Position numbers and translations under genes: made by a program. From Patescibacteria group bacterium (lineage in GTDB: Bacteria > Patescibacteriota > Minisyncoccia > UBA6257 > 1-14-0-10-40-38): DNA of 64,000 bases. Position 1 is the first letter of the stretch. Each line of letters begins with the position of its first letter. The DNA lies in assembly GCA_038064975.1 (NCBI GenBank), contig JBBTRX010000002.1, positions 193,278-257,277 on the forward strand. The letters run 5' to 3'. Below, piece by piece: positions 9,400-56,204 of the stretch. Below the pieces are notes generated by a model. That model did not search any database. It was not told the DNA's origin and saw only the letters and a program-made list of their open reading frames with translations.

Positions 9400-9441
9400 A
9401 AATAAAAAAAATCGTCCCCTATTGCGGGGGCGATTTTTTAA
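9400..9441. terminator. bidirectional rho-independent terminator (A-run, hairpin ATCGTCCCC/GGGGGCGAT, T-run)
   Basis: The hairpin is seen in sequence. It lies between convergent glgA (+) and yraN (-). Confidence 0.6.
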
Positions 9442-9848
9442 TTGACGTTTTCAAAATGCTGGAGGTTTTTATCTATAAAATCTTTTTTATATATTGTCAA
9501 TGCGTCTCCTTCTAGTTCGGTATCTGGGAGTTGTATGGTGATAACATCAATTCTCCAGCCCTTCGAACTATTGACAAGTTTAGAATTTTGGTTTGCATAA
9601 AATAAAGCCGATCTCTTCATCTTTTTTATTTTTTGCGGAGTCATATTATCTTCAGGGCTAAGCTCGCTTCCCTGTTTCATTGTTTTTACTTCAACGAAGA
9701 CGATTGTTCCATCCTTGGTTTTAGCGATGAGATCTATTTCTCCCAAAGGTACAAATTCATTGTGCATCAAAATTTTCCATCCCATGTTTTGGAGATACTT
9801 ACCTGCAATATCCTCTCCAATCTTACCCACTGTCTGATTTTCACTCAT
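9438..9848 (-). CDS. yraN: YraN/UPF0102 family endonuclease (PD-(D/E)xK fold)
   Basis: The sequence GEDIAGKYLQNMGWKIL...GEIDLIA...VFVEVK matches the UPF0102 pattern. Confidence 0.75.
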   Translation of the reverse strand: MSENQTVGKIGEDIAGKYLQNMGWKILMHNEFVPLGEIDLIAKTKDGTIVFVEVKTMKQGSELSPEDNMTPQKIKKMKRSALFYANQNSKLVNSSKGWRIDVITIQLPDTELEGDALTIYKKDFIDKNLQHFENVN

Positions 9849-9853
9849 GTAAT

Positions 9854-10409
9854 TGTTTCACGTGAAACATCTGTATAACAAATTAATTCAAACACATTTT
9901 CTATTAAAATTGAAAGTAAGTAATTCAATTGTTTCACGTGAAACAATTTGGTTAATTAGTGGATTGTTAGAATTGTTAAGATGTTTCACGTGAAACATTG
10001 TTCACACGGGAAAATCTTAAATATTGAAGTGATTATTAATATATTCCATGTCCAGGATCTAATAATCCCTATATTTAGTATTTTTTGTTGTTTTCTATTT
10101 TTTGCATTGTTTCACGTGAAACAATGCAAAACAATTCTGTATCGCAAATTTCCTTTTTATAGAAATTGAATACAATGTTTCACGTGAAACATTGATCAAA
10201 GAACGAACTCCAGTTTTTCAATTGTTTCACGTGAAACAATTGAGATTCTTTTTATTCTCGCAATATCATCAAATTGCTATGGAAAATGGATATTTCTATG
10301 AAATTAATGTTTCTCAATTATTTATGCATTGTTTCACGTGAAACAATGCATAAATAGAATATGCTCGCTTGATGTGCTGAATCTGTTACAAAATGTTTCA
10401 CGTGAAACA
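9854..10409. promoter_or_regulatory. array of 8 perfect parS centromere sites, TGTTTCACGTGAAACA, at 9854, 9930, 9982, 10108, 10176, 10223, 10330 and 10394 (each 16 bp)
   Basis: Exact matches to the canonical ParB-binding palindrome were counted by eye. Each core is extended into a longer 20-38 bp palindrome. Spacing is irregular (47-126 bp). The region is non-coding and AT-rich. Confidence 0.85.
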
Positions 10410-10470
10410 TTTTGTAACAGATTTATTGAACTAAAATGTTTTACAGGTGTTTTACACTTAGTAATATATA

Positions 10471-10553
10471 CGGCAATGCGGCAATCATATGAAGAATGCG
10501 GCAATGAATACGGCAATGTATATACGGCAATAGGATACGGCAATTGCCGTATC
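10471..10553. repeat. iteron-like array of six direct RYRCGGCAAT repeats ending in the perfect 22-bp palindrome GGATACGGCAATTGCCGTATCC
   Basis: CGGCAAT starts at 10471, 10479, 10499, 10511, 10525 and 10538. An inverted copy lies at 10543-10549. Confidence 0.8.
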
Positions 10554-10559
10554 CTATAA

Positions 10560-10595
10560 AAATAAAATTGCCAGGGTTTTGTCTGGCAATTTTAT
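10560..10595 (-). terminator. rho-independent terminator of the M15 peptidase gene (AAATTGCCAG/CTGGCAATTT hairpin followed by T-run on the minus strand)
   Basis: Seen in sequence, immediately 3' of the 10625 stop. Confidence 0.6.
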
Positions 10596-10624
10596 TACAA
10601 ACTGAAATATAAGATTAAGCAAGT

Positions 10625-11581
10625 CTAATCGAAAATTTTAACTAAGTATTCGTCAATCTGCCTCTGCTCAAGATTATAGAAATCCTTATTCTGATCGTGT
10701 AAATATGTCGCGAGAGCAACTCCGACGAATCTCCAATGCCAGGGTTCAAAAATATAGTATCCATTGTTTTGTGGATAGGAGAGAATAAAACCATACTTAA
10801 ATGCATTATTTTGCATCCACGTATAAGCCGGAGTTTTATCAAAGCCATAAAGCTGTCCATTCAAACCCGTAGTTATGAAATCAGCGGTTGTTCCAAGTTG
10901 ATGCTCTGAATAGCCTTGATCAGCAGAAAATTGATTCGCCGTTCCGGCACCATAAGTCACCGTATAGGACGATTTCAAAGCTTCTTGTTCGTCAAAGCCG
11001 CGATAGGCCGATTTGACATAGATAGTTACTCCATTTGATTTTGCCGCGACAAGGAGGTTATTAAGATAAGGGAAGACACGCTCATGTATTTGTTCTGGTC
11101 GGTTTTCGCTATAGAGAAATTCTTTGCCAATTTCAACCACCCGTTCGGGAGCGTAGTGTTCATTCAAAAAGAATACTTTTGAATACTTCTGCAAAAGCTC
11201 CGGGTCGGTTTTGCTAAGTTTTTCCAGCGTTCCAACCGTGTTGGATATTACTCCAACCGTCTGTTCAAAGCCGCCGACTCGCGTTTGGACTCCTTCAATA
11301 TTCTGATTTGCAATGGAGAGTGTTTTAGAAATACCAAGAGATTCTTGTTCTAGGGCACCCGTCTTCTCATTTAATGTATTAATCGCGGTTGCGAATAGGG
11401 CAGTAGTAGAAGCGACTTCAGAAGAAAGCTGATCTATTTGTTTTGCAAGGGAATATGTCTGTATGTAGCCATACGTAAATAAACCGATGAGCACGGCAAT
11501 ACCGATTATTAAAGAACGATTGACTGATGAAAATTTTCTTACTTTTTGCCAATTCATGTGCGTGCTGAGGGGAGATCTCAC
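10625..11581 (-). CDS. D-alanyl-D-alanine carboxypeptidase, peptidase M15 (VanY-like), N-terminal TM and coiled coil
   Basis: Motifs SEHQLGTTADF and EPWHWRF are present. Confidence 0.8.
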   Translation of the reverse strand: MRSPLSTHMNWQKVRKFSSVNRSLIIGIAVLIGLFTYGYIQTYSLAKQIDQLSSEVASTTALFATAINTLNEKTGALEQESLGISKTLSIANQNIEGVQTRVGGFEQTVGVISNTVGTLEKLSKTDPELLQKYSKVFFLNEHYAPERVVEIGKEFLYSENRPEQIHERVFPYLNNLLVAAKSNGVTIYVKSAYRGFDEQEALKSSYTVTYGAGTANQFSADQGYSEHQLGTTADFITTGLNGQLYGFDKTPAYTWMQNNAFKYGFILSYPQNNGYYIFEPWHWRFVGVALATYLHDQNKDFYNLEQRQIDEYLVKIFD

Positions 11582-11685
11582 GTCGTCCGATTTTGCCGGA
11601 CTCCTTGAAACCCCTCGGTTTCAATAACTTCCGTCTCGGGAAAACTCCCGATTTTCCCGACCCCTTTCCCTGTTCGGATTCTGCG

Positions 11686-11758: not shown

Positions 11759-11775
11759 AAATATACTATCTGAAT

Positions 11776-12130
11776 AAATGAGCTATACTTCTTATTTGTC
11801 TCTTTCAAGCTTAAGCGAAGTGGGCCACTGCCTGTCCGTCCGCCCGCCTGAATGAAATTCATTTCGGGCAGGTAGTCAGGGCATTGCCGGACGAAGGAGG
11901 AAGCTAAGCGCGCATATATTCAGGAACTCATTGTATCCCGATTGTACAATAAAGAAAAGATCACGCCTACGGCGTGTAAATCCGCCGGAGGCCAGCCTCG
12001 CCGTAACTAGTCTAGGCGGGCGGGCAGGTCCTCCAAGGACGGATAAACCCGCCGAAGGTGGGCAGGCTTGCAAGAGAGTGCGTTAGTGAAGTACTGTTTT
12101 TATTAGCTCCATATTATACTAAGCGAGTCG
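11776..12130. ncRNA. candidate structured non-coding RNA of unknown class (strand undetermined)
   Basis: About 360 nt between two tRNAs with no credible ORF. It is GC-rich. There is long-range complementarity: CCTGTCCGTCCGCCCGCCT at 11831-11849 against AGGCGGGCGGGCAGG at 12025-12039 and GGACGGA at 12049-12055. Several internal hairpins are present. No GGAAAGUCC (RNase P) motif was found. Confidence 0.35.
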
Positions 12131-12138
12131 GACAAAAT

Positions 12139-12210
12139 CGGCCCATAGCTCAAGGGCAGAGCATCCGTCTTATACACGGGGGGTTGCAGGTTCGAATCCT
12201 GCTGGGCCGA
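12139..12210 (+). tRNA. tRNA-Ile with anticodon TAT (UAU), reading AUA
   Basis: Manual cloverleaf: acceptor CGGCCCA/TGGGCCG, D-arm GCTCAAGGGCAGAGC, anticodon stem TCCGT/ACGGG, loop CTTATAC, T-arm GCAGGTTCGAATCCTGC. Confidence 0.65.
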
Positions 12211-12217
12211 CAACAAA

Positions 12218-14234: not shown

Positions 14235-14250
14235 TGTTTTACGTGAAACA
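14235..14250. promoter_or_regulatory. degenerate parS-like site TGTTTTACGTGAAACA (1 mismatch), adjacent to palindrome TTGTCCGGCAAAGCCGGATCCGGCTTTGCCGGACAA
   Basis: Seen in the ftsH/xer divergent intergenic region. The adjacent palindrome contains the CCGGCAA motif. Confidence 0.55.
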
Positions 14251-14366
14251 TTTTGTCCGGCAAAGCCGGATCCGGCTTTGCCGGACAACTAGCGACTAAT
14301 AATGAATTTAATTGGTCAACTTATCTTCCGTATACTAGTGTCGCAAAATAATCTACTATTATAACC

Positions 14367-17377: not shown

Positions 17378-17767
17378 TTAGAAAACTGTTTCTACAACTA
17401 ACTGAATCACTGCTCGAGAAAGGAATGCTACGATGACAGCAATAATTGCGTAAATAATATACGTTTTTGCCTTCCCAATATTATCTTCATTGCCTCCAGC
17501 CATGAGATACAAGTACGCTGCCCAGAGGACAAAAACACCAGCGAGAAAAATGAGAAACCCAAAAGCCCAACCGACAAGATTATCAAGTGTTCTCTTGATG
17601 AGACTTGAATCAGCACTTGGTTGTATCGGATTGATTCCACCTTGTGCTCCTACTACCATAGGGAATGCTACGAGGAAAATAACTAATGCAATTAAGAGCC
17701 CTTTTTTCATATGTAATATATTAATGCGTTCTGAATTATGACAATCGACCAAATGCTTATGCCCCAA
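17378..17767 (-). CDS. TrbC/VirB2-like pilin family small membrane protein (paralog 3)
   Basis: There is a signal peptide and two C-terminal hydrophobic helices (LWAAYLYLMAGG...AKTYIIYAIIAVIVAFL). It is paralogous to its two upstream neighbours. Confidence 0.5.
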   Translation of the reverse strand: MGHKHLVDCHNSERINILHMKKGLLIALVIFLVAFPMVVGAQGGINPIQPSADSSLIKRTLDNLVGWAFGFLIFLAGVFVLWAAYLYLMAGGNEDNIGKAKTYIIYAIIAVIVAFLSRAVIQLVVETVF

Positions 17768-18179
17768 TTATCTCTTTAATTAAAGCAATAAGCGCACGGG
17801 ATATCAAGAGAACAGCAACACCAATAACAGCATACGTAATTGTTCTTTTTCCATTTTCAAATTCAGTGGGATCTCCTTTTGCAAACAATATTTGATATCC
17901 GCCCCAGATAATCATAAGTGTTGCTATGGTGAGACCGAGTCCAACAGCAAATCCGATAAGGTCATTTAAAATTTGTTCAAGTGATTTTGATGGAATAATC
18001 TGACCACCTATTCCAGTTTGAGAAGGTGGTTGTTGCCCGACTCCTGATTGAGAAGGTGGTTGTTGTCCAAATCCCGATTGCGCTAACGCTGACTGAACAA
18101 GAATTAAATTTTTTAAAAATAGGTTCATAGAGATATAAATTATGGATTGGGTACAGAGTTGTTGGAAAGTAAACTCCAA
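17757..18179 (-). CDS. TrbC/VirB2-like pilin family small membrane protein (paralog 2) with Q/P-rich linker
   Basis: It shows the IIWGGYQILFAKGDP...ITYAVIGVAVLLI two-helix module. There is an internal repeat SG(F/V)GQQPPSQ. Confidence 0.5.
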   Translation of the reverse strand: MEFTFQQLCTQSIIYISMNLFLKNLILVQSALAQSGFGQQPPSQSGVGQQPPSQTGIGGQIIPSKSLEQILNDLIGFAVGLGLTIATLMIIWGGYQILFAKGDPTEFENGKRTITYAVIGVAVLLISRALIALIKEIIGA

Positions 18180-18538
18180 ACGAGTGAAACGATAATACCT
18201 GCTCCGAATACGATTGCGACGCCAATGAGTGCAGTTGTAATAATTTGCCTTCCCTTGGCGAACTCACTTGAATTCCCGCGTGCCATGATTATCTTAAACC
18301 CGCCCCAGATAATCATCAAGACAGCAAGGGGAAGGACGATGACTTTTCCGAGATAATCTATTACTACCTTAATAAGGTAAGCAAAGCTATTTAATCCACA
18401 ACCGCCATTGTCCGGTGGAAGATTAGGATCGCATTGAAGATCAACTCCTAAAATATTTAAAGTATCTGCACTCGCAATTCCTGGCATCAATATTATTGAG
18501 CAGCTAAGTAGAAAGAAAAAGAAAAATAGTATCTTCAT
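18140..18538 (-). CDS. TrbC/VirB2-like pilin family small membrane protein (paralog 1)
   Basis: The signal peptide is MKILFFFFFLLSCSIILMPGIASA. A Cys pair is followed by the MIIWGGFKIIMARG...ITTALIGVAIVFG module. Confidence 0.5.
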   Translation of the reverse strand: MKILFFFFFLLSCSIILMPGIASADTLNILGVDLQCDPNLPPDNGGCGLNSFAYLIKVVIDYLGKVIVLPLAVLMIIWGGFKIIMARGNSSEFAKGRQIITTALIGVAIVFGAGIIVSLVWSLLSNNSVPNP

Positions 18539-55472: not shown

Positions 55473-56204
55473 ATGTTAATTGCCGTATATTCTTGCCGTA
55501 TGGATATCCAGCGGCAATCACAACTAGTAAGCTTTGCGGCACTTCGAATTGCCGCATATGTAAAAAGGAGAGAGCTGCGCGATCGCTTAAGCCGTCTCGC
55601 GTTTGATCTTATTGAGGCAGTTTCACAGAAAGATACTCATAAAATAAGCGAAGTTATCCTCTCTTTGCAGGGGCTTATATCGTTAGGTAAGGCATTGTAC
55701 GAAGTTGAGCCTACAAACGCCGATATTGTTATTGAGGAATCAGGTAAAATACTTGAGTTTGAGTTTGGAGAGGATACTCAAGATAAACCGGCAATCAAAG
55801 AAGTGGATATTTCTGGAATATTCAAAAAAGAGAGAACGCTCTTTTCTCATGAATTAGAGAAACCGAAAGAGATAAAGAAAAGCGGCAACGGCAATAAGGC
55901 AGAAGGTGTTAAAAAAATAATGCGGCAAGAGGATACGGCAAAAGAGAATAAGGCAATAGTCATAACTCCAGAGAAGCCACATATAAAGCAAAGCCAGGAG
56001 GAAAACCCGGCAATACGGCAATCGGCAATGCGAGATAAGATACGGCAAATAGGGGAGGCAGAGTTAAAGGATCTTATTGCCGCATTTCCCAATGTGAGCG
56101 AACGGACGATACGGTATGACGTGCAACGGTTATGTGCTGATGGATTAGTGGAGCGTATAGGTCCTGGAGGACCCGGAAGTTTCTATCGGGTAAGATCGGT
56201 GTAA
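55473..56204 (+). CDS. putative DNA-binding protein with C-terminal winged-helix motif (SERTIRYDVQRLCADGLVERIG); start uncertain
   Basis: ORF track. The C-terminal wHTH-like segment is the basis. Its 5' region and body are rich in ATTGCCGTAT/CGGCAAT motifs. Confidence 0.4.
   Translation: MLIAVYSCRMDIQRQSQLVSFAALRIAAYVKRRELRDRLSRLAFDLIEAVSQKDTHKISEVILSLQGLISLGKALYEVEPTNADIVIEESGKILEFEFGEDTQDKPAIKEVDISGIFKKERTLFSHELEKPKEIKKSGNGNKAEGVKKIMRQEDTAKENKAIVITPEKPHIKQSQEENPAIRQSAMRDKIRQIGEAELKDLIAAFPNVSERTIRYDVQRLCADGLVERIGPGGPGSFYRVRSV

What the first reader, a model, noticed from the sequence alone, without database searches (positions are those of the whole stretch)
9854..10409. Eight perfect canonical parS sites packed into 560 bp of non-coding DNA (chromosomal centromere cluster)
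TGTTTCACGTGAAACA is the consensus ParB/Spo0J-binding parS palindrome. Most chromosomes carry a few copies scattered over tens of kb, usually inside genes. Here eight exact copies sit at irregular 47-126 bp spacing in one intergenic block. Each is embedded in a longer 20-38 bp palindrome, and some arm extensions are shared pairwise (4 with 7, 2 with 6). This resembles a plasmid-type tandem centromere or synthetic parS array more than a typical chromosome. No parAB is in the window, so the partner genes lie elsewhere. The block marks the origin-proximal region and is probably a ParB nucleation and SMC-loading hub.
Basis: partly seen in the sequence, partly recalled or inferred. Interest (0 to 1): 0.85.

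Follow-up and report, generated by a model that had tools for sequence, protein, structure and literature searches.

The report
Dense parS centromere array beside yraN
Eight perfect copies of the bacterial centromere sequence parS sit in 560 bp just upstream of the DNA-repair/transformation nuclease gene yraN in a groundwater CPR (Patescibacteria) bacterium; related genomes keep the same module, sometimes with a drifted core sequence, so it is a real and unusual variant of a known kind of element.

Summary
Eight exact TGTTTCACGTGAAACA sites lie at 9854-10409 in a 776-bp intergenic gap, against 0.03 expected by chance. The window is chromosomal DNA of a groundwater Patescibacteria (CPR) MAG.

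The array is best read as a compact ParB-loading centromere.
- No parA, parB or dnaA lies within 91 kb.
- The array has no GC-skew switch and no DnaA-box cluster.
- Dense arrays are not plasmid-like oddities. A truncated census found at least 120 species with perfect parS pairs 30-60 bp apart. Six of them have 5 or more sites per 600 bp, mostly in classical origin-proximal contexts (beside parAB, mnmG/rsmG or gyrA).

The new point is that the array is one part of a module kept in related CPR genomes. The order is CGGCAAT iterons, then 4-10 parS-type palindromes, then the start of yraN, which encodes a transformation D-loop nuclease. Spacers are unalignable while the sites persist. In three relatives the central bases (positions 6-7) have drifted from canonical parS, but the TGTTT/AAACA arms are largely kept and the central CG mostly kept.

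So this is a known kind of element in a new, yraN-coupled, evolving variant. ParB binding, distance to the origin and any effect on yraN remain untested.

The parts
9854..9869 (.). parS site 1. It is an exact 16-bp consensus with no palindromic extension. It ends 5 nt upstream of the yraN ATG (9848, minus strand).
   Evidence: An in-frame TGA 12 nt upstream of the ATG means the yraN 5' UTR must contain this site (read).
9927..9948 (.). parS site 2 (core 9930-9945) inside a 22-bp perfect palindrome. Its flanks are shared with site 6.
   Evidence: (I2)
9981..9998 (.). parS site 3 (core 9982-9997) inside an 18-bp palindrome.
10100..10131 (.). parS site 4 (core 10108-10123) inside a 32-bp perfect palindrome. 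Its flanks are 94% identical to those of site 7.
   Evidence: (I1)
10173..10194 (.). parS site 5 (core 10176-10191) inside a 22-bp palindrome.
10218..10243 (.). parS site 6 (core 10223-10238) inside a 26-bp palindrome.
10319..10356 (.). parS site 7 (core 10330-10345) inside a 38-bp perfect palindrome.
   Evidence: (I18)
10380..10423 (.). parS site 8 (core 10394-10409) inside a 44-bp perfect palindrome, AATCTGTTACAAAA|parS|TTTTGTAACAGATT. It is the site furthest from yraN. The extension is conserved at the equivalent site of L206, with a symmetric A/T to G/C change.
   Evidence: (I11)
10470..10554 (.). Iteron block at the far edge of the array. It has six direct copies of (A/G)CGGCAAT plus one inverted copy, and ends in the 22-bp palindrome GGATACGGCAATTGCCGTATCC (10533-10554). 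The binder is unknown.
   Evidence: (D3-D5). Across the window, RCGGCAAT occurs 27 times against 5.95 expected, and 7 of those are here. The same motif sits at the same place in L123, L130, L206, L207 and L253.
10567..10590 (-). Hairpin ATTGCCAG-N8-CTGGCAAT followed by a T-run on the minus strand. It is the likely vanY terminator and is built from two more copies of the GGCAAT motif.
   Evidence: The terminator reading is inference from the sequence.
9438..9848 (-). yraN (UPF0102 family, PD-(D/E)xK nuclease, 136 aa). Its 5' end abuts the array.
   Evidence: One search gives PF02021 at 3e-20. One search shows NCBI names the identical protein 'YraN family protein [Patescibacteria group bacterium]'. 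One search shows that the conserved N-terminal residues G8, G11 and E12 fix the start. The function comes from bioRxiv 10.1101/2024.02.06.579203.
14235..14250 (.). Ninth, one-mismatch parS-like site (TGTTTTACGTGAAACA) in the divergent ftsH/xerC intergenic region.
14255..14286 (.). 32-bp perfect palindrome GTCCGGCAAAGCCGGA|TCCGGCTTTGCCGGAC, 4 nt from the ninth site. It carries the same CCGGCAA motif as the iterons.

Best explanation
The block is a compact chromosomal centromere of a small-genome CPR bacterium.

Proposed mechanism, with the basis for each step:
1. Each of the eight consensus parS sites recruits a ParB dimer. This rests on established ParB/parS knowledge.
2. With CTP, ParB closes into a clamp, slides off and frees the site for the next dimer. 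This also rests on established knowledge.
3. Eight sites in 560 bp therefore act as a high-flux loading zone that builds one dense partition complex. The complex would serve ParA-driven segregation and probably SMC loading. This is inference.

Shown here: the array is inherited, not recent. It is part of a module kept in related CPR genomes, in the order CGGCAAT iterons, parS-type array, yraN. Only the 16-mers, the iterons and one extended palindrome are conserved in it.

Secondary inference: site 1 ends 5 nt before the yraN start codon, and the yraN 5' UTR must run through it. The same nucleoprotein complex probably also dampens expression of this transformation nuclease.

The array lies away from parAB and is not at a GC-skew turning point. 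The cognate ParB and the origin lie elsewhere in the genome.
For: Sequence identity:
- Eight of eight sites are exact matches to the pan-bacterial parS consensus. This is the same consensus used as the idealised site in PMC7383237.

Selection on the sites:
- Orthologous loci have the same gene order. L206 runs xerC-ftsH-tRNA-Ile(tat)-tRNA-Val-array-yraN-tRNA-Lys-recG. L123 runs tRNA-iterons-array-yraN-GH57-glgA.
- These loci carry 9-10 parS-type sites, although proteins are only 40-70% identical.
- After the palindromes are masked, the spacers show no similarity beyond the iteron motif.

Centromere context of dense arrays elsewhere:
- In the census, 66 of 120 loci with close parS pairs encode ParA within 8 kb, and 60 of 120 encode ParB.
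- The densest arrays sit upstream of parA-parB (L048), between or after mnmG and rsmG (L119, L058), or beside gyrA (L083, L108).

Not a dispersed repeat:
- TGTTTCAC occurs only in these sites within 64 kb.

Benefit of many sites:
- In vitro, ParB-CTP condensation strength rises with parS number. Condensation was seen with 7, 13 and 26 sites but not with 1-4 in that assay. The authors state that more parS gives a higher clamp-loading rate (PMC8299390).

Precedent for natural clusters:
- Myxococcus xanthus has 24 parS sites upstream of parAB (PMC3778016).

Double-stranded DNA protein site rather than RNA hairpin:
- In L207 the two half-sites of one palindrome vary independently.
Against: - No ParB, ParA, SMC or DnaA gene was found in the 91 kb that could be read. 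Presence of a cognate ParB in this genome is therefore assumed, not shown.
- Origin proximity is not shown. There is no skew switch at the array and no DnaA boxes in it.
- The strict linkage to the yraN start in most of the closest relatives fits an operator at least as well as a centromere.
- In L130, L207 and L253 the sites are not canonical parS at positions 6-7. The binder in those lineages cannot be a ParB of standard specificity.
- A second conserved motif, the CGGCAAT iterons, has no place in the standard ParABS model.
Confidence: 0.68

Rival explanations
1. The array is primarily an operator array for yraN, not a segregation centromere. A ParB, or a ParB/Noc-like paralogue, binds the sites and silences or times expression of the transformation D-loop nuclease. 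The iterons bind a co-regulator or act as a boundary.
For: - yraN is the only constant neighbour. The other flanks differ: vanY or glgA in the window, tRNA or GH57 in L123, tRNA-Val or recG in L206, dksA-comM or nusA in L130, JAB or nusA in L207, and an MGMT-like gene or peptidase M17 in L078.
- The proximal site ends 5 nt before the ATG in the window, about 27 nt before it in L123 and about 18 nt before it in L130.
- L255 and L254 keep only half-sites right at the yraN start.
- There is precedent for repression. P. aeruginosa ParB represses the promoters at parS3 and parS4. S. pneumoniae ParB-parS dampens the competence operon comCDE (review PMC7022226).
- The core drift in L130, L207 and L253 is easier for a local regulator than for a genome-wide centromere code.
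Against: - Eight to ten high-affinity sites spread over 0.4-0.9 kb is far more than a promoter needs.
- The sites in the window, L078, L123 and L206 are exactly the universal chromosomal parS, so ParB would load and spread there whatever else happens.
- No regulator gene travels with the module.
- Chromosomal ParB complexes usually do not silence neighbouring genes, for example in B. subtilis.
Confidence: 0.2
2. The block is part of, or an accessory to, the replication origin. It would be an oriC-linked or DnaA-titrating region, with the iterons as initiator or accessory-protein sites and the parS sites coupling initiation to segregation.
For: - In a Parcubacteria MAG (L079), perfect DnaA boxes TTATCCACA alternate with parS-type sites inside a tandem array.
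- L206 has one exact DnaA box between its iterons and its array.
- gyrA lies 10 kb away.
- The iterons are reminiscent of initiator-binding repeats.
Against: - No DnaA box with up to 1 mismatch lies in 9849-10624, and none in L123.
- No dnaA or dnaN lies within 91 kb.
- Cumulative GC skew runs straight through the array and only flattens about 8 kb further on, next to a mobile-looking island with an RHS toxin, a type III restriction-modification system and a serine recombinase.
Confidence: 0.06
3. The palindromes are selfish or mutational by-products with no protein partner. They would be REP/MITE-like palindromic repeats, or palindromes grown by hairpin template-switching. Alternatively they act as RNA hairpins in the yraN 5' UTR.
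For: - Long perfect palindromes (up to 44 bp) and pairwise-shared flanks suggest copying between sites.
- Two sites score as terminator-like hairpins.
Against: - There are no copies elsewhere in 64 kb.
- The core is exactly the ParB consensus.
- The sites are retained at the orthologous position while the spacers randomise.
- Half-sites vary independently in L207, which would break RNA stems.
- No Rfam family matches at a meaningful score.
Confidence: 0.04

Closest known systems
Chromosomal parS clusters bound by ParB/Spo0J. Examples: Myxococcus xanthus with 24 parS upstream of parAB (PMC3778016), Corynebacterium glutamicum (PMC7083940), Pseudomonas aeruginosa parS1-4 (PMC4368675) and Bacillus subtilis with 10 sites.
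   Same: They share the same 16-bp palindrome in several copies in one region of the chromosome. The presumed role is also the same, as ParB-CTP clamp loading sites that nucleate the partition complex.
   Different: - The density here is about one site per 70 bp.
- All eight sites are perfect and all are intergenic.
- The array is not next to parAB; none lies within 91 kb.
- Origin proximity is not shown.
- The array is fixed to the start of yraN and bracketed by CGGCAAT iterons.
- The core drifts in relatives.
Dense perfect-parS arrays found here on other chromosomes: L083 and L108 (Bacilli, beside gyrA), L048 (Lachnospiraceae, upstream of parA-parB), L119 and L058 (at mnmG-rsmG) and L078 (Paceibacterota, upstream of yraN).
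   Same: They have 5-9 exact parS sites within 600 bp of non-coding DNA.
   Different: - Most of them are recent tandem duplications with a fixed period, for example 55 bp in L083 and repeated units of about 110 bp in L078.
- Most sit in classical origin-proximal contexts.
- The window array has irregular spacing and unrelated spacers, so it is old and maintained site by site.
Plasmid tandem-repeat centromeres, such as F sopC (12 x 43 bp) and the centromere-operators of type Ib/II par loci. This comparison rests on my own knowledge.
   Same: Both have many binding sites packed in a short non-coding block that overlaps a promoter or 5' UTR.
   Different: - The window array has no fixed repeat unit.
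- It has no adjacent par operon.
- It uses the chromosomal consensus sequence.
- It sits in a core chromosomal neighbourhood (ftsH, xerC, recG, tRNAs) that is syntenic in relatives.
ParB acting as a local repressor. Examples: P. aeruginosa parS3/parS4 upstream of PA0011/PA0013, and S. pneumoniae parS near comCDE (PMC7022226).
   Same: parS sits in a promoter region. In the pneumococcal case there is also a link to competence or transformation genes.
   Different: Those cases involve single sites. Here a whole array lies next to yraN, and the effect on expression is untested.
Noc and its NBS sites, and evolution of ParB/Noc specificity (PMC7383237).
   Same: The variant arrays in L207, L130 and L253 differ from parS at the base that separates parS from NBS. 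This is adenine 6 in that paper's numbering, or position 7 of the 16-mer.
   Different: - The sequences are not NBS, which is TATTTCCCGGGAAATA.
- The sites are clustered in one array rather than dispersed over the chromosome.

Membership tests
Chromosomal parS centromere (ParABS) | A 16-bp palindrome matching the consensus TGTTTCACGTGAAACA | tested here: met
   Eight of eight sites match exactly, and a ninth has one mismatch.
Chromosomal parS centromere (ParABS) | A cognate ParB (ParB_N CTPase domain plus HTH) and ParA encoded in the genome | not testable with these tools
   None was found in the window or in about 27 kb of flanks, by Pfam or by tblastn with a ParA/ParB pair on the window and the first ~18 kb of flank (L203, L205); the last ~10 kb (L252) has precomputed Pfam only. 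The rest of the genome could not be read.
Chromosomal parS centromere (ParABS) | Location in the origin-proximal part of the chromosome | tested here: inconclusive
   No dnaA gene or DnaA-box cluster is present. GC skew shows no turn at the array and flattens about 8 kb away. The contig is 227.8 kb of a genome of unknown size.
Chromosomal parS centromere (ParABS) | Sites maintained by selection, meaning they are conserved where the neighbouring DNA is not | tested here: met
   The orthologous arrays in L123 and L206 keep 9-10 sites, yet the spacers are unalignable once the sites are masked.
Chromosomal parS centromere (ParABS) | ParB binding, spreading and a segregation function in vivo | not testable with these tools
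   This needs EMSA, ChIP-seq or genetics.
Plasmid-type tandem-repeat centromere | Head-to-tail repeats of a fixed unit next to its own par operon | tested here: not met
   Spacings range from 47 to 126 bp with no shared unit beyond about 33 nt. No par genes are present. The surroundings are syntenic housekeeping genes.
REP/MITE-like dispersed palindromic repeats | Many copies scattered through the genome | tested here: not met
   The half-site TGTTTCAC occurs 17 times in 64 kb, all within the nine sites.
oriC | A cluster of DnaA boxes, usually beside dnaA or dnaN, at the GC-skew minimum | tested here: not met
   No box with up to 1 mismatch lies in 9849-10624. No dnaA lies within 91 kb. The skew does not turn at the array.
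Noc-binding sites (NBS) | The consensus TATTTCCCGGGAAATA, dispersed over the chromosome | tested here: not met
   The window sites have G at position 2 and A at position 7, so they are parS and not NBS.
Known RNA families (Rfam 15) | A match to a covariance model at or near its gathering score | tested here: not met
   Within 9849-10624 only sub-threshold chance hits appear, for example miRNA and snoRNA models with E of 0.12 or worse.

The most novel reading that the evidence does not exclude
In one CPR clade the chromosome's centromere has been reduced to a single compact array. This array is physically and functionally coupled to the transformation nuclease gene yraN and to a second DNA-binding factor that recognises the CGGCAAT iterons. 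Because all sites sit in one array, the parS code is free to co-evolve with its ParB. The drift at positions 6-7 in L130, L207 and L253 would be the result. That would give a natural series of ParB-parS specificity changes, and a direct link between the segregation complex and the control of competence or recombination.
Probability: 0.2. Interest if true: 0.75.

Novelty: new variant of a known kind. Interest (0 to 1): 0.55.

Why it matters
parS is one of the most conserved protein-binding sequences in bacteria, and nothing is known about chromosome segregation in CPR/Patescibacteria. My literature searches for parS and ParB together with Patescibacteria or Saccharibacteria returned no paper.

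This locus offers three things:
- A natural high-density ParB loading array, of the kind so far mainly built synthetically for single-molecule work.
- A conserved, testable coupling between a parS array and yraN, the ComM-partner nuclease of natural transformation, in a group where competence is thought to be central to the lifestyle.
- A set of related arrays whose core has drifted at exactly the base that separates parS from Noc sites. With the genomes in hand, one could test directly whether ParB specificity residues co-vary with the sites.

If ParB turns out to be absent, or the sites are bound by something else, that would be more surprising still.

Tried and rejected
- I looked for parA, parB and dnaA by Pfam on all sizeable ORFs of the window. 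I also used tblastn with a ParA/ParB pair from L048. I walked the source contig 9 kb to the right and 19 kb to the left. Nothing was found, and further walking was blocked by the look-up cap.
- Two exact-protein look-ups failed because the gene starts differ from the gene caller's.
- A DnaA-box scan found no cluster at the array. The window-wide excess, 33 against 13 expected, is scattered.
- Rfam returned only chance hits.
- The promoter/terminator scan found nothing above the shuffled background for promoters. Two parS palindromes score as weak terminator-like hairpins, which I consider incidental.
- A de novo search for any other repeated palindrome upstream of about 80 yraN genes found only arrays with TGTTT...AAACA arms.
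- A yraN protein tree was too weakly resolved to say whether loci with arrays form one clade.
- Literature searches for parS and ParB in Patescibacteria or Saccharibacteria returned no paper. The CPR paper I checked (PMC10633639) does not mention ParB.
- I considered DNA-uptake sequences, given the yraN/comM link to transformation. I rejected this because the motif is not dispersed.
- I considered LexA/SOS boxes and rejected this as well. The half-site order is opposite to the Gram-positive Cheo box, and 8-10 copies would be unprecedented. This rests on my own knowledge.

Full report
**1. The observation**

A pattern search finds eight zero-mismatch copies of TGTTTCACGTGAAACA. They start at 9854, 9930, 9982, 10108, 10176, 10223, 10330 and 10394. 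The only other near match in 64 kb has one mismatch and lies at 14235. Shuffles of the window give 0.03 matches on average.

Start-to-start spacings are 76, 52, 126, 68, 47, 107 and 64 bp. This does not fit any helical phase.

The block lies in a 776-bp gap between two minus-strand genes. One is a UPF0102/YraN gene (9438-9848). The other is a VanY-type carboxypeptidase gene (10625-11581).

Palindromy continues beyond the 16-mer by 0, 3, 1, 8, 3, 5, 11 and 14 bp per arm. An arm of 8 or more occurs at 2e-4 of random centres in this window. Sites 4/7 and 2/6 share flanks.

The same array is present in an independent 227.8-kb ENA contig. A short Logan contig carries four of the sites and breaks inside the array.

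**2. Where the window comes from**

The neighbours are housekeeping genes: recG, two glgA, GH57, ftsH, xerC-like, gyrA, pnp, recA, nusA, ftsK, clpB and an H+-PPase. There are also three tandem T4SS-pilin-like genes and a tRNA-Ile(UAU).

The YraN protein is identical to an NCBI entry from a 'Patescibacteria group bacterium' MAG. The source contig is from a 0.1-µm groundwater fraction. This is chromosomal DNA of a CPR bacterium, not a plasmid or phage.

**3. How unusual a dense array is**

I scanned one genome per GTDB species for two perfect parS sites 30-60 bp apart. Hits came from Streptomyces, Lachnospiraceae, Chloroflexota, Acidobacteriota, Bacteroidota, Proteobacteria and CPR.

- Most loci have just the pair.
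- Six loci have 5-9 exact sites within 600 bp.
- ParA is encoded within 8 kb in 66 of the 120 loci, and ParB in 60.
- The densest arrays sit in classical origin-proximal places:
  - upstream of parA-parB (L048);
  - at mnmG-rsmG (L119, L058);
  - beside gyrA (L083, L108).
- IMG/VR contigs hold 43 further loci with such pairs, with up to six sites per 600 bp.

The window's array is therefore at the top of the density range, but it is not unique and not specifically plasmid-like. It does differ from most of the others in one respect. Those are regular tandem duplications, with a 55-bp period in L083 and repeated units of about 110 bp in L078. The window's spacers are unrelated to each other.

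**4. The array is one part of a conserved module**

I searched metagenomes with a YraN alignment. I then looked up the contigs of the closest YraN homologues. This produced the following loci.

| Locus | YraN identity to window | Upstream of yraN |
|---|---|---|
| L123 | 41% | tRNA, iterons, then 9 sites in about 635 bp (5 exact, 4 variant), yraN, GH57, glgA |
| L206 | 46% | xerC, ftsH, tRNA-Ile(tat), TTGCC iterons, tRNA-Val(tac), then 10 sites (4 exact) plus 4 half-sites, yraN, tRNA-Lys(ctt), recG |
| L207 | 51% | iteron palindrome CAATGCGGCAATTGCCGCATTG, then 8 variant sites, yraN |
| L130 | 41% | comM, dksA-like gene, CCGGCAAT iterons, then 4 variant sites at a 37-bp period, yraN, nusA |
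| L253 | 47% | iterons, then 6 variant sites, an inserted LAGLIDADG gene, yraN |
| L255 | 46% | four direct TGTTTCACG half-sites, then yraN-glgA-GH57-glgA as in the window |
| L078 | 33% | 7 exact sites plus 1 degenerate site, yraN; this is a complete Paceibacterota chromosome |

- L206 has the window's gene order, apart from vanY and the glycogen genes.
- About 70 more distant yraN loci show no repeated palindrome of any kind upstream.
- Housekeeping proteins of these relatives are 40-70% identical to the window's.
- After the palindromes are masked, the only similarity left in the intergenic regions is the iteron motif and the extension of site 8. The iteron motif includes a 19-nt match to L130 at E = 2e-4, and the 12-mer CGGCAATTGCCG is exact in the window, L130 and L207.
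- The site-8 extension (TGTTACAAAA|parS|TTTTGTAACA) recurs at the equivalent, yraN-distal site of L206 as TGTTACAAAG|parS|CTTTGTAACA. This is a symmetric change that keeps the palindrome.

The sites, the iterons and at least one long palindrome are therefore under selection. The rest is not.

**5. Drift of the core**

Half-site profiles show the following.

- TGTTT is invariant in six of the seven arrays (position 5 is C in 4 of 12 L253 half-sites), and C8 is nearly invariant in all.
- Positions 6-7 change between lineages:

| Array | Bases at positions 6-7 |
|---|---|
| window, L078 | CA |
| L123, L206 | C/G at 6, A at 7 |
| L207 | A/G at 6, C/A at 7 |
| L130 | G/A at 6, T/G at 7 |
| L253 | mixed |

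Position 7 is the 'adenine 6' that distinguishes parS from Noc-binding sites. It is read by defined specificity residues in ParB/Noc proteins (PMC7383237).

In L207 the two halves of a site vary independently. This argues for a dimeric protein reading double-stranded DNA rather than for an RNA hairpin.

**6. What is not there**

- No ParA, ParB, SMC or DnaA domain was found in the window.
- None was found in about 27 kb of added flank. In all, 91 kb was read, extending 62 kb and 29 kb from the array.
- No DnaA box with up to 1 mismatch lies in the block.
- Cumulative GC skew over 81.6 kb runs through the array without turning. It only flattens about 8 kb further on, beside a mobile-looking island.
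- Origin proximity is therefore unproven. parAB adjacency is excluded.
- By contrast, a Parcubacteria array (L079) alternates parS-type sites with perfect TTATCCACA boxes. In some CPR, arrays therefore do sit with DnaA boxes.

**7. Interpretation**

The exact, eightfold, selectively maintained match to the universal parS consensus makes ParB binding by far the most economical reading.

Under the CTP-clamp model, each site is a loading gate that is vacated once the clamp slides away. Site number therefore sets loading flux. In vitro, ParB-dependent condensation strengthens with parS number and was detectable from 7 sites upward (PMC8299390).

I therefore read the block as a compact, high-flux centromere (confidence about 0.68).

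The invariant linkage to yraN is the feature that the standard model does not explain.

- YraN is reported as the endonuclease partner of the ComM helicase in resolving the transformation D-loop (bioRxiv 10.1101/2024.02.06.579203).
- comM, recA and nusA lie in the same window. In L130, comM is the divergent neighbour of the module.
- ParB bound at promoter-proximal parS represses genes in P. aeruginosa. It dampens the competence operon in S. pneumoniae (PMC7022226).
- A dual role, as centromere and as brake on yraN, is plausible.
- A purely regulatory role is the main rival (confidence about 0.2).

The iterons remain unexplained. A boundary or roadblock for sliding ParB, or the site of a co-factor, are guesses. 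Notably, the isolated ninth parS-like site at 14235 is also followed within 4 nt by a 32-bp palindrome built on the same CCGGCAA motif.

**8. Verdict**

The element belongs to a known kind, chromosomal parS. Its form is not described in the literature I could search. It is ultra-dense and separate from parAB. It is coupled to yraN and flanked by iterons. In sister lineages its core is drifting.

The key unknowns need the full genomes or experiments:
- whether the genome encodes ParB;
- how far the array lies from oriC;
- whether the array affects yraN expression.

Noticed in passing
window 10470-10590; also L123 471-551, L130 4710-4770, L206 4700-4735, L207 1-22, L253 3991-4021: A second conserved element sits at the yraN-distal edge of the array. 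It is a cluster of (N)CGGCAAT iterons, direct plus inverted, often including the palindrome CGGCAATTGCCG. The binder and function are unknown.
   Followed up: partly
window 14235-14286: A one-mismatch parS lies in the divergent ftsH/xerC promoter region. It is followed after 4 nt by a 32-bp perfect palindrome, GTCCGGCAAAGCCGGATCCGGCTTTGCCGGAC, which carries the iteron motif. This is a second pairing of a parS with GGCAA.
   Followed up: partly
L130 4850-4976, L207 63-409, L253 4137-4433: Arrays upstream of yraN in related CPR contigs keep the TGTTT/AAACA arms (L253 has TGTTC in four half-sites) and mostly the central CG but have non-parS bases at positions 6-7. Examples are TGTTTGTCGACAAACA and TGTTTACCGGCAAACA. 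This may reflect ParB-parS co-evolution or a ParB-like paralogue.
   Followed up: partly
L079 4400-4920 (Parcubacteria MAG JAAZHW010000091.1): This is a tandem array in which parS and near-parS sites alternate with perfect DnaA boxes (…GAAACACTTTATCCACAG…). Each parS is preceded by ATCTGGCA. It looks like an origin-embedded centromere. The neighbouring gene is iPGM, not dnaA.
   Followed up: partly
L208 5456-5893, L253 4464-4934, L254 1089-1565: In three relatives, a free-standing LAGLIDADG homing-endonuclease gene sits immediately upstream of yraN and divergent from it. In L253 it lies between the array and yraN.
   Followed up: no
census loci L003-L122: Across 321 exact parS sites from many phyla, palindromy extends on average 1.96 bp per arm beyond the 16-mer. 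The null, estimated from this window, is 0.34. About 9% of sites have arms extended by 7 bp or more. The cause is unknown. Possibilities are wider ParB contacts, outer half-sites or hairpin-templated mutation.
   Followed up: partly
window 12139-12211 (also L206 4527-4599): A tRNA-Ile with anticodon TAT (UAU) is present and is conserved in the syntenic relative. This anticodon is uncommon in bacteria, which usually decode AUA with a lysidine-modified CAU tRNA (my own knowledge).
   Followed up: no
window 11605-11665; L206 4380-4438: A conserved 61-nt non-coding element lies next to the tRNA genes (79% identity, E = 2e-8). It has no Rfam match. The GC-rich 11760-12138 tRNA-Val/tRNA-Ile spacer also has no match.
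   Followed up: partly
window 17378-18538: Three tandem small ORFs carry the T4SS_pilin (PF18895) domain and sit next to a solute-binding protein gene. The same arrangement is present in the source contig.
   Followed up: no
window 55473-56204: A 243-aa ORF with no Pfam match has coding sequence unusually rich in CGGCAAT/ATTGCCG, with 11 copies in 600 bp. This is probably coincidental with the iterons. Its C-terminus looks like a winged-helix DNA-binding domain by eye.
   Followed up: no
L203/L252 (source contig 130-147 kb, just left of the window): A mobile-looking island lies here. It holds a 1,996-aa SpvB/RHS-type toxin, an AAA_14 ATPase, SpoVG, a type III restriction-modification methylase with its helicase, and a serine recombinase. 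The cumulative GC skew flattens at this point.
   Followed up: no
Viral-contig loci L209-L251: Forty-three IMG/VR contigs carry perfect parS pairs 30-60 bp apart, with up to 6 sites per 600 bp in L240. Only one of them (L216) shows a ParB homologue nearby.
   Followed up: partly
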